From Eledone cirrhosa (taxonomy: Eukaryota), in the NCBI GenBank assembly GCA_964016885.1, contig OZ024754.1, forward strand, positions 5,456,001 to 5,520,000: a stretch of DNA of 64,000 nucleotides. The letters are read 5' to 3'. The notes beneath the pieces are model-generated. The model did not search any database, was not told where the DNA came from, and saw only the letters and a list, made by a program, of their open reading frames with translations. Made by a program: the position numbers and the translations under genes. Of the stretch, positions 12,305 to 52,666 are shown one piece after another. How positions within the stretch are numbered: the stretch's first letter is position 1; every line of letters begins with the position of its first letter.

Positions 12305-12652
12305 ATTAGAAAGTGAGGTTTTTTTTACAAAATGAAAAATAACCGAGGTGTCCTACACGAGTGAAAGTATAAAGAAAATGAGATGAAATCGAAAATGCAA
12401 CTGGAGTCTTATTTAAAAAATATATATATATATTTATTTGGTTCCTTTACCGGTTTCGCAGTTCTGCTTTTCAAAAGGTGAGTTGAGATGGAGGGTCTGT
12501 GGTTGTGGGGTGTGAGAAAAACCACAGACCCTCCATCTCAACTCTACCTTTGAAAAGCAGAAGAACTGCGAAACCGGTAAAGGAACCAAATAAATATATA
12601 TATTTAAAAAAAAAATAAAACTCCAGTTGCATTTTCGATTTCATCTCTTTTT

Positions 12653-12657
<5 letters not shown>
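12305..12657. mobile_element. Fold-back element family P2 in (TA)n
   Basis: ~135-bp inverted arms (12371-12505 / 12520-12657) plus a unique tail 12305-12370; near-identical to 46501-46865 in the opposite orientation. Confidence 0.85.
12444..12478 (-). ncRNA. Predicted minimal hammerhead ribozyme (U3-A8 variant), P2
   Basis: Minus strand reads CCUU-UUGAAAA-GCA(GAAC)UGC-GAAACCGGUA^-AAGG. A second copy on + at 12547-12583 has a weaker stem I. Confidence 0.6.
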
Positions 12658-12705
<48 letters not shown>

Positions 12706-30062: not shown

Positions 30063-30449
30063 AAAAGAAATAGGATTTCGCTTCAAGCATAGCTTTATAC
30101 AATATGTGATGTCCAGCAGAAGCAAGGGGGACAACCGTCTATGCATTTCCGGCTTAACTGGCCATTGTCAGGACGGTCCATCCCACCGCTTGCGACTGCT
30201 GGACTAGAAGACAGGCGAAAATATGTAGTTTTCTCGTCTGTGTAAATGAGGTGATTAATCTCATTTGCATATGAAGCTGCATAAGTTGGCTCAACTTATA
30301 ATAGAAAAGAAATAGGTTTTTGCTTCAAGCATAGCTTTATACAATATGTATAAATATTTTGTATCTCCCAAGAAATACGGTTTTAGGAAGCCGTAACTAT
30401 GCAAACACCGGGGGGGGGGGCTAACGCCCTCTGGTGATGTCCAGCAGAA
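30063..30449. mobile_element. (TA)n-flanked element with partial direct tandem duplication
   Basis: aaaagaaatagg..gcttcaagcatagctttatacaatatgt at ~30063 and ~30305; gtgatgtccagcagaa at ~30106 and ~30434. Confidence 0.55.

Positions 30450-46458: not shown

Positions 46459-46461
<3 letters not shown>
46246..46461 (-). mobile_element. Element with hammerhead 3' half
   Basis: Minus strand reads ..caatagc-GAAAC-GCGC-GUC-accaaccAATAAA; no CUGANGA found upstream. Confidence 0.4.
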
Positions 46462-46500
<39 letters not shown>

Positions 46501-46504
<4 letters not shown>

Positions 46505-46857
46505 AAAAAGGGATGAAATCGAAAATGCAACTGAAGTCTTATTTTTTTTTTAAATATATATATTTATTTGGTTCCTTTACCGGTTTCGCAGTTCTTCTGC
46601 TTTTCAAAAGGTGAGTTGAGATGGAGGGTCTGTGGTTTTTCTCACATTTCAGATGTGAGAAAAACCACAGACCCTCCATCTCAACTCACCTTTTGAAAAG
46701 CAGAAGAACTGCGAAACCGGTAAAGGAACCAAATAAATATATATATTTTTAAAAAAAATAAGACTTCAGTTGCATTTTCGATTTCATCCCTTTTTCTTTA
46801 TACTTCCACTCGTGTAGGACACCTCGGTTATTTTTCATTTTGTAAAAAAAACCTCAC

Positions 46858-46865
<8 letters not shown>
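46501..46865. mobile_element. Fold-back element family P2 (best-preserved copy)
   Basis: ~148-bp near-perfect inverted arms centred at ~46650, tail 46801-46865, (TA)n on both sides. Confidence 0.9.
46689..46726 (+). ncRNA. Predicted minimal hammerhead ribozyme (U3-A8 variant), P2
   Basis: CCUU-UUGAAAA-GCAG(AAGAA)CUGC-GAAACCGGUA^-AAGG; predicted cleavage after 46722; identical copy on minus at 46574-46611. Confidence 0.7.
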
Positions 46866-47372
<507 letters not shown>

Positions 47373-49275: not shown

Positions 49276-49510
49276 AACGAAGGAAATGTGGTAAGGAACC
49301 AGGTGGACCATAACGCACCAAAGTACTCAATACTTGAGGTAGTAGAGTGGGTAATAGGAACCAGTAAGACCCCGACAGCTGAGCTCAAGCCGTTTCGACG
49401 GCTAATTCTGGACTAAAAAAAAAAAAAAAAAAAAAAAAAATCTTTTTTTTTTTTAGTCCAGAATTAGCCGTCGAAACGGCTTGAGCTCAGCCGTCGGGGT
49501 CTTACTGGTT

Positions 49511-50921: not shown

Positions 50922-51081
50922 CAGATGCGAGAAAAACCACAAATCCTTCATCTCAATTCTACTTTTGAAAAGCATAAGGACTGTGAAACGGGTAAAGGAA
51001 AACAAATAAATATTCTTTCACTGGTGTGTTGGACATCTGGTTTTCATTTTTTTTTCATTACAAAAAAACTCATTTTCTGAT
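50922..51081 (+). mobile_element. Diverged single-arm P2 copy
   Basis: acttTTGAAAAgcataaggactgtGAAACgggtaaagg plus a P2-like tail; (TA)n flanks. Confidence 0.75.
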
Positions 51082-52334: not shown

Positions 52335-52520
52335 TATAGAAAGGCTTCTACAGACTAGAAGTGTTTCATTCGGGAGAAATCATCAATTCTGAGGATTTCT
52401 CCCGAATGAAACAGTTCTATTCCTGTGGAAGCCTTTCTATATTAAATATATATACTCTGCTTTCTATTGAGTACCTGACTTACTGTGGTTACCCCCGATT
52501 GAACCCGGGATAAACTTATA
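52335..52520. mobile_element. Fold-back element family P3 with decayed hammerheads
   Basis: ~50-bp arms centred at ~52387; CTGAGGA 52389-52395, GAAAC 52408-52412; the triplet is GUG (non-cleavable); tail homologous to 33206-33280. Confidence 0.8.
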
Positions 52521-52540
52521 TATATATATATATATATATA

Positions 52541-52666
52541 TAAGGAAAAAAGATGAAATCGAAATTGCAACTGCAGTCTTTTTTTTTTTAAATATATTTA
52601 TTTGGTTCCTTTACCGGATTCGCAGTTCTTAAGCTTTTCAAAAGTAGAATTGAGATGGAGGGTTTG
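52541..52666 (-). mobile_element. Diverged P2 arm
   Basis: Matches the P2 arm; the core GAAA is mutated to GAAT. Confidence 0.75.

What the first reader, a model, noticed from the sequence alone, without database searches (positions are those of the whole stretch)
46501..46865. P2 hammerhead has a compensated U3-A8 core (UUGAAAA) and a tiny palindromic stem III
Seen: CCUU-UUGAAAA-GCAG/CUGC-GAAACCGGUA-AAGG, 38 nt in total. The UUGAAAA core is retained in all four P2 loci (12.3, 46.5, 50.9 and 52.5 kb) while the loop of stem II varies. Known: C3-G8 is a Watson-Crick tertiary pair, so U3-A8 preserves it; minimal PLE hammerheads with self-complementary stem III can act as dimers. Searches for CUGANGA would miss this family.
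Basis: partly seen in the sequence, partly recalled or inferred. Interest (0 to 1): 0.75.

Follow-up and report, generated by a model that had tools for sequence, protein, structure and literature searches.

The report
Penelope hammerhead with known U-A core
This is a short mirror-image fragment of a very abundant Penelope-type jumping gene that carries a tiny, probably self-cutting RNA motif whose unusual U-A core pair is already in print; the only fresh points are a predicted self-blocking pair at the cut site and a small excess of genome copies that start exactly there.

Summary
The 38-nt motif is exactly as described (46689-46726). It is the type-I minimal hammerhead in the pseudo-LTR of a young Penelope-like retrotransposon (RT, CX4CxxC linker, GIY-YIG; TA-repeat targets; 13,570 exact hits of a 22-mer). 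U3-A8 is real compensation: fixed within the family (11,378 U-A, 0 C-G), and Watson-Crick in 26 of 26 distinct hammerheads beside related RTs, the two nearest being C3-G8. It is not new: Cervera 2014 reports about 1,300 U3-A8 PLE motifs and the identical UUGAAAA core; this scan also met it in another genome. The window argument is weak, since the older copies have broken stems or core. The locus is a 150-bp palindrome centred 30 nt after the element's TATA box, with one short and one long end, so it is promoterless and would bury its own ribozyme. Two modest additions: U3 is predicted to pair with A17 (mirror of the inhibitory C3-G17 trap; 0 of 5 other U3-A8 motifs have A17), and 5' junctions of copies are about 3-fold enriched at the predicted cut. 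Cleavage is untested. Verdict: new member of a known kind, low interest.

The parts
46689..46726 (+). Type-I minimal hammerhead motif: stem I CCUU/AAGG, core U3-U4-G5-A6-A7-A8-A9, stem II GCAG/CUGC, G12-A13-A14-A15.1, palindrome CCGG, U16.1-A17; predicted cut 46722/46723
46574..46611 (-). Identical mirror copy of the hammerhead in the left arm (predicted cut 46578/46577)
46716..46721 (+). Self-complementary ACCGGU (A15.1-CCGG-U16.1): helix III of the predicted dimer
   Evidence: duplex -8.3 kcal/mol; the cofold MFE has the double-hammerhead topology
46650..46802 (+). Right arm: pLTR segment from the inferred transcription start to the first fixed 3' end
   Evidence: 99% identical to the pLTR of the full-length copy L097
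46803..46865 (+). 63-nt PLE tail, up to the second fixed 3' end, present on one arm only
   Evidence: 3' ends at arm 152 (51) or arm 215 (68) of 133; 26 of 32 head-to-head pairs are one long plus one short, none short-short or long-long
46498..46647 (-). Left arm: inverted short copy (transcription start to first 3' end)
46648..46652 (.). Head-to-head junction; in full-length copies this point lies 30 nt after TATAAAA and 79 nt after CCAAT
46461..46497 (.). (TA)n target, left flank
46866..46941 (.). (TA)n target, right flank
12305..12659 (.). Second two-armed insertion of the family (long arm on the minus strand 12504-12305, short arm on the plus strand 12511-12659); hammerhead copies 12444-12478 (-, 3-nt deletion) and 12546-12583 (+)
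50922..51080 (+). Older single arm, 86% identical over 50922-51013 (3' limit approximate); stem II and palindrome broken
52539..52666 (-). Older single short arm, 85% identical; core GAAU, stem II broken

Best explanation
The motif is the minimal type-I hammerhead of a young, TA-targeting Penelope-like retrotransposon, with U3-A8 replacing C3-G8, and it likely cuts only weakly and mainly as a dimer or with protein help, while the 46.5-kb locus itself is a promoterless two-armed fragment that is probably inert. Shown: the full element is pLTR - ORF1 (409 aa) - ORF2 (775 aa: RT, CX4CxxC, GIY-YIG) - about 1 kb 3'UTR - pLTR, with the hammerhead in ORF sense; U3-A8 is fixed in the family and covaries with C3-G8 across families; arms end at two sites 63 nt apart; 5' junctions pile up 30 nt after a TATA box. 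Inferred: Pol II starts at about window 46650, so the hammerhead lies at about +39 to +76 of the transcript; the enzyme nicks both strands of (TA)n, primes at the two internal sites, copies back to the RNA 5' end, and the two short cDNAs join head to head, giving this palindrome. Predicted: two RNAs pair through ACCGGU to form a double hammerhead, but U3 can also pair with A17 and close the cut site. Inferred from copy ends: most templates were uncut, and about 0.5% of copies begin at the predicted cut.
For: Element anatomy. Copy number: 13,570 exact hits of a 22-mer, 0 for the reversed control; many open 775-aa frames with identical scores. Core: UUGAAAA in 73 of 73 arms from loci picked by the protein plus the window, 0 of 511 core bases changed against about 1% nearby; U3A8 11,378, C3A8 37, U3G8 23, C3G8 0. 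Across families: 26 of 26 distinct sense-strand motifs have a Watson-Crick 3-8 pair (19 C-G, 5 U-A, 1 G-C, 1 A-U), with 0 hits in 10 shuffles; the nearest RTs L179 and L182 carry C3-G8 with the same short architecture. Dimer fold. TATA -30 and CCAAT -79 in 6 of 6 full-length pLTRs checked; 50 of 142 arms start within 17 nt of that point. Junction excess at the cut. Precedent: Cervera 2014, Frangieh 2024, Perreault 2011.
Against: No cleavage or expression data. The monomer folds no better than shuffles (z -0.94), and the hammerhead monomer with A15.1-U16.1 closed costs +0.7 kcal/mol. U3-A17 is paired in both monomer and dimer MFE (probability 0.56 in the monomer), which could abolish activity. 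One subfamily has only 3 bp in stem I (18 of 73 arms). The junction peak is small, was tallied by eye from lists, and sits on a TAAA stretch that offers microhomology to (TA)n and at the 3' edge of helix III, where RT could stall without any cut. The two flanking controls differ from each other (about 28 and 31-39 junction-like hits). The transcription start is inferred from DNA only. The tree is a quick one. Clade assignment was not tested against reference PLEs.
Confidence: 0.8

Rival explanations
1. The motif is a dead hammerhead carried passively: after the change to U3, pairing with A17 and slipping of the U run against the A run trap it, and the element spreads without it.
For: U3-A17 is paired in the MFE of monomer and dimer. 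C3-G17 strongly impairs minimal hammerheads (Kalweit 2013, passages). 0 of 5 other U3-A8 motifs have A17. Hammerhead mutants did not affect insertion by the anole PLE in vitro. Inserted copies keep sequence on both sides of the cut.
Against: Both 3 and 8 changed together and every other core base is canonical; the high-frequency subfamily differences fall outside the core; the younger subfamily (97% identity to the window arm) has a 4-bp stem I; junction excess at the cut.
Confidence: 0.2
2. The 46.5-kb locus is itself a functional unit (a retrozyme-like or host-used self-cleaving RNA).
For: Both hammerhead copies are intact.
Against: The two copies are on opposite strands, so no tandem dimer forms in cis. 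A transcript across both arms folds into a hairpin of about 150 bp (-258 kcal/mol) that buries the motif. The TATA box is not in the copy. No tandem array, and no RT remnant of the family in the window. Arms are 97-99% identical to the active element, so they are simply young.
Confidence: 0.04
3. The hammerhead likeness is a chance fit in an A/U-rich pLTR.
For: No Rfam hammerhead match at E up to 10; fold not better than shuffles.
Against: Same position and architecture as C3-G8 hammerheads beside the nearest RTs; the descriptor gives 0 hits in shuffles; identical core in the published S. mansoni family 4.
Confidence: 0.02

Closest known systems
Minimal hammerheads of Penelope-like elements, U3-A8 variant (Cervera and De la Pena 2014, PMC4209133; main text parts 1-2 of 4 and supplement parts 1-2 of 3 read)
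   Same: Type I, in the pLTR, U3-A8 (about 1,300 hits in Schistosoma mansoni; family 4 has the same UUGAAAA), palindromic 15.2-16.2, copies 100-700 bp apart on opposite strands, dimer model with low activity in vitro.
   Different: S. mansoni family 4 has an extra base after A9, a 6-bp stem II, a 2-nt palindrome and U17. Here there is no extra base, a 4-bp stem II, a 4-nt palindrome and A17.
Marsupenaeus japonicus PLE hammerhead (supplementary Fig. S3 of PMC4209133; Craig 2021, PMC8557442, calls MjPLE01 of this shrimp Neptune-like, passage read)
   Same: No extra base, 4-bp stem II, 4-nt palindrome (GCGC), UA cleavage site.
   Different: It has C3-G8, so A17 cannot pair with position 3.
Poseidon element PAc of Anolis carolinensis (Frangieh 2024, PMC11167929; parts 1-2 of 4 read)
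   Same: Two internal RT start sites that define the tail, both strands nicked and extended, AT-rich targets, hammerhead near the ORF start.
   Different: C3-G8 core, tail of 30-40 nt (63 here), hammerhead overlaps the start codon (here it lies about 170 nt upstream of the first AUG), single ORF. That study found no RNA-seq reads ending at the cut.
G17 hammerheads with a C3-G17 trap (Kalweit and Hammann 2013, PMC3884650; passages read)
   Same: A Watson-Crick pair between positions 3 and 17 stacked on helix I that competes with the 3-8 pair.
   Different: Engineered G-C trap in tertiary-stabilised ribozymes; here a natural and weaker U-A version, predicted only.

Membership tests
Type-I hammerhead ribozyme | Core N3-U4-G5-A6-N7-N8-A9, G12-A13-A14-A15.1, U16.1-H17 with a Watson-Crick 3-8 pair | tested here: met
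   U3-A8 accepted as natural covariation
Type-I hammerhead ribozyme | Stems I and II close around the core, G10.1-C11.1 pair | tested here: met
   both stems in the MFE, 4 bp each
Type-I hammerhead ribozyme | Covariation of positions 3 and 8 among homologues | tested here: met
   26 of 26 Watson-Crick across families; uninformative within the family
Type-I hammerhead ribozyme | Match to an Rfam hammerhead model | tested here: not met
   no hammerhead family at E up to 10; whether Rfam models cover minimal PLE forms at all was not checked
Type-I hammerhead ribozyme | Site-specific self-cleavage | not testable with these tools
   only indirect: about 3-fold excess of 5' junctions at the predicted bond
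Minimal (dimer-dependent) PLE hammerhead | Palindromic 15.2-16.2 region, unstable helix III as monomer, stable as dimer | tested here: met
   (prediction): monomer +0.7; tandem double hammerhead -16.4 to -17.8 against -14.4 for two monomers
Minimal (dimer-dependent) PLE hammerhead | Extra unpaired base between A9 and G10.1 (consensus in Cervera 2014) | tested here: not met
   also absent in the shrimp motif and in L179, L182, L260, so not universal
EN+ Penelope-like element | RT with C-terminal GIY-YIG endonuclease; DKG and CCHH motifs | tested here: met
   GIY-YIG above cut-off, RVT_1 E 4.9e-6 (below cut-off); motifs read in the translation; 744 homologues
EN+ Penelope-like element | pLTR with hammerhead, tandem or inverted copies, tail at one end | tested here: met
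Neptune/Nematis clades | CX2-5CxxC linker between RT and EN; (TA)n targets | tested here: met
   CGRSNCGTC in ORF2 and TA flanks; definition
Neptune/Nematis clades | RT phylogeny with reference elements | not tested
   no named reference PLE proteins in hand; the tree holds unnamed relatives only
Non-LTR retrozyme | Head-to-tail tandem units, each with a hammerhead | tested here: not met
   head-to-head palindrome, one hammerhead per strand

The most novel reading that the evidence does not exclude
This family carries a natural U3-A17 latch, the mirror of the C3-G17 trap, that keeps the element's RNA mostly uncut, and the genome itself records the rare cuts: copies whose 5' junction falls exactly at the scissile bond are reverse transcripts of cleaved RNA, which would be direct in-vivo evidence that a Penelope hammerhead cleaves and that the cut RNA can still be inserted.
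Probability: 0.3. Interest if true: 0.55.

Novelty: new member of a known kind. Interest (0 to 1): 0.27.

Why it matters
As stated, little: U3-A8 PLE hammerheads and the need for a second descriptor were published in 2014. What PLE hammerheads do in vivo is still open (Craig 2021 calls it unclear; Frangieh 2024 found cleavage dispensable in vitro and no cut reads). A family with more than 13,000 young copies, a readable transcription start and two fixed priming sites lets one compare uncut and cut templates from DNA alone. If the junction peak and the 3-17 latch hold, they give a handle on how often and under what control these ribozymes cut.

Tried and rejected
DNA similarity search of the own genome with the arm returned nothing (common words are skipped), so exact patterns were used. 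Within-family 3-8 covariation: no C3-G8 copy; 0.07 doubles are expected from the singles, so the test is empty. A strict pattern for C3-G8 hammerheads of the same short architecture found only 4 places in this genome, with 1 control hit: no close C3-G8 sister family seen here. Sequencing runs: no RNA holder listed; three contig runs of one study, possibly the source sample, were laid and only repeat the known ends, so nothing is concluded on expression. Rfam over the whole window gave miRNA-hairpin matches below gathering score in the 150 rows shown of 337: chance matches to palindromes and TA repeats. A 49-nt intron reading (GTGAG at 46655 to CAG at 46703) was considered by eye and could not be tested without RNA. 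A shared spliced leader at the 5' hotspot was rejected because non-inverted copies have unrelated upstream sequence. Of the 15 nearest related loci examined, 11 gave no motif downstream of the ORF, several being short contigs. The minus-strand control of the cross-family scan gave 6 hits, 3 of them Watson-Crick at 3-8, one being an inverted true copy. Lunse 2016 and Przybilski 2007 were not held, so their data on dimers and on U3-A8 activity are known here only through passages of PMC6765202 and PMC3088659; they or their supplements may already cover U3 with A17. A literature search for U3-A17 or A17-U3 with 'hammerhead' found no paper using those terms; searches found no report of this family.

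Full report
Observation. The motif is present base for base at 46689-46726 on the plus strand, 38 nt, with the predicted cut at 46722/46723. Each half occurs 6 times in the window against 0.54 and 0.17 expected. The locus is a palindrome: arms 46498-46647 and 46653-46802 are 99% complementary, the right arm runs on for 63 nt to 46865, and both sides are (TA)n. A second, identical hammerhead therefore lies on the minus strand at 46574-46611. Seven unchanged bases at 14-15% divergence have a chance of 0.32-0.35 per copy.

What it belongs to. A 22-mer from the 3' half has 13,570 exact matches in the 3.0-Gb genome and 0 for the reversed control. In locus L049 the arm follows, in the same sense, an ORF with RT and GIY-YIG matches and about 1 kb of 3'UTR, with an inverted arm at the 5' end. 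A protein search gave many copies with identical scores and open frames of 775 codons. Of 20 fetched regions, 17 hold a 775-aa ORF2 and 10 also hold a 409-410-aa ORF1. [quoted passage not shown] The family is young: 51 of 73 arms belong to a subfamily 97% identical on average to the window arm, 18 to an older one at 92% with a 3-bp stem I.

How the locus arose. Of 133 arms with a visible 3' end, 51 stop at arm position 152 and 68 at position 215, both running into TA. Among 32 distinct short head-to-head insertions, 26 have one long and one short end, 6 have a long end and an irregular one, and none has two of the same kind. Of 142 arms, 50 have their 5' junction within 17 nt of window 46650, against 25 over the 380 nt upstream; 45 run beyond the reference (the sample was chosen by hammerhead or ORF patterns, so it is not random). 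In 6 of 6 full-length pLTRs checked, that point is 30 nt after TATAAAA and 79 nt after CCAAT. I infer a Pol II start there. Frangieh 2024 showed for an anole PLE that both target strands are nicked and extended and that RT starts at two internal sites whose spacing is the tail. Together these give a simple account, inferred: priming at +152 and +215 from the two strands of a cut (TA)n, run-off at the RNA 5' end, and head-to-head joining. The copy lacks the promoter, and a read-through RNA would fold into a hairpin of about 150 bp (-258 kcal/mol) that buries the motif. Earlier notes of this scan describe the same two-ended footprint for retrozyme arrays in this genome; I had the pattern before that look-up and did not check their elements.

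Is U3-A8 a compensation? In 73 arms from loci picked by the protein, plus the window, UUGAAAA is intact in all 73 (0 of 511 bases changed, about 1% in neighbouring parts); this is modest evidence, since the core has no CpG. Across families the test works. In 87 contigs with related RTs, a descriptor free at positions 3 and 8 found 33 sense-strand motifs, 26 after removing repeats, all with a Watson-Crick 3-8 pair: 19 C-G, 5 U-A, 1 G-C, 1 A-U; ten shuffles gave 0 hits, the minus strands 6. On a quick RT tree of 28 rows, U-A appears in several separate places, and the nearest rows, L179 and L182, have C3-G8 with the same design: no extra base and a 4-nt palindrome.

Is it known? Yes. Cervera and De la Pena 2014 report U3-A8 in Cercyon elements of Schistosoma mansoni, wrote a descriptor for it and found about 1,300 hits; their supplementary alignment lists a family with the same UUGAAAA and a shrimp motif with a 4-bp stem II, GCGC palindrome and UA site. 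Perreault 2011 reports natural U3-A8 covariation and cites in-vitro activity (passage). This scan met the variant in another genome. Rfam has no hammerhead match here at E up to 10, so the remark that standard searches miss it is right but was already acted on in print.

Would it cut? Predicted folds: the monomer with A15.1-U16.1 closed costs +0.7 kcal/mol; two copies pair through ACCGGU, and the cofold minimum has the double-hammerhead topology; in a tandem with a 30-nt linker this form scores -16.4 (open core) to -17.8 against -14.4 for two monomers. In both monomer and dimer the minimum extends stem I by a U3-A17 pair (probability 0.56 in the monomer). This mirrors the C3-G17 trap proposed to explain the poor activity of G17 hammerheads (Kalweit 2013, passages). 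None of the 5 other U3-A8 motifs has A17 (a small sample), and a search for U3-A17 found no paper, though two relevant papers were not held. Published minimal PLE hammerheads cut weakly and only as multimers or with protein.

A genomic trace of cutting? Patterns that forbid the consensus upstream of an anchor count copies whose 5' junction lies there. At the predicted cut: 151 hits; all but 1 of 30 inspected continue into the element, though several are internal duplications. Seven bases upstream: 81 hits, about 53 of them indels or substitutions by eye. At the next AA, four bases downstream: 31 hits, 30 of 30 checked being family copies, with an anchor met by 90 of 112 copies. Like for like (non-A before AA), about 65 against about 21, a ratio of 3. 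In the first 100 of 269 hits of a wider pattern, the classes for positions 75, 74, 73, 72 and 71 hold 5, 18, 30, 12 and 22 after setting aside 8 snap-backs and 5 duplications; a flat model expects about 10, 15, 16, 16 and 30 (p about 0.001). The peak sits on the predicted bond and amounts to about 0.5% of copies. It is suggestive only: counts are by eye, paired arms are not independent, and TA microhomology or RT stalling at helix III could produce it.

Verdict. Most copies come from uncut RNA; weak, dimer- or protein-dependent cleavage is likely; the window locus is probably inert. Interest 0.27, carried by the 3-17 latch and the junction peak as testable leads.

Noticed in passing
L096:3871-3958 (G000:C1:399391500 + offset): ORF1 (409 aa, no Pfam match) overlaps ORF2 by 88 nt in the -1 frame, and the overlap holds U UUU UUA in the ORF1 frame, a classic slippery heptamer (recalled): likely programmed -1 frameshift. 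Craig 2021 mentions frameshifted ORF1 in some PLE types.
   Followed up: partly
window 52389 (+) and 33327 (-): A second family with a CUGANGA core and GAAA, inside an inverted repeat at about 52350-52440; probably another PLE hammerhead with C3-G8.
   Followed up: no
window 49362-49507: Another near-perfect palindrome next to (TA)n with a poly-A/T centre; looks like a two-armed insertion of a different family.
   Followed up: no
window 30140-30171 (-): Hammerhead-like stretch with C3-A8 mismatch, palindrome UGCA and a 7-bp stem I; possibly a decayed copy of another family.
   Followed up: no
L220:1969 and L225:117: Hammerheads beside PLE-like RTs with A3-U8 and G3-C8 cores, rarer natural 3-8 combinations.
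   Followed up: partly
L255-L261; P0012, P0037, P0041, P0056: PLE RT-GIY-YIG sequences filed under bacterial genome bins and symbiont names, most likely animal host contamination.
   Followed up: no
L018:1962 and 2429; L048:5344; L050:2295, 5172 and 5266: Other hammerhead families with C3-G8 in this genome; the L018 pair lies 467 nt apart in tandem.
   Followed up: no
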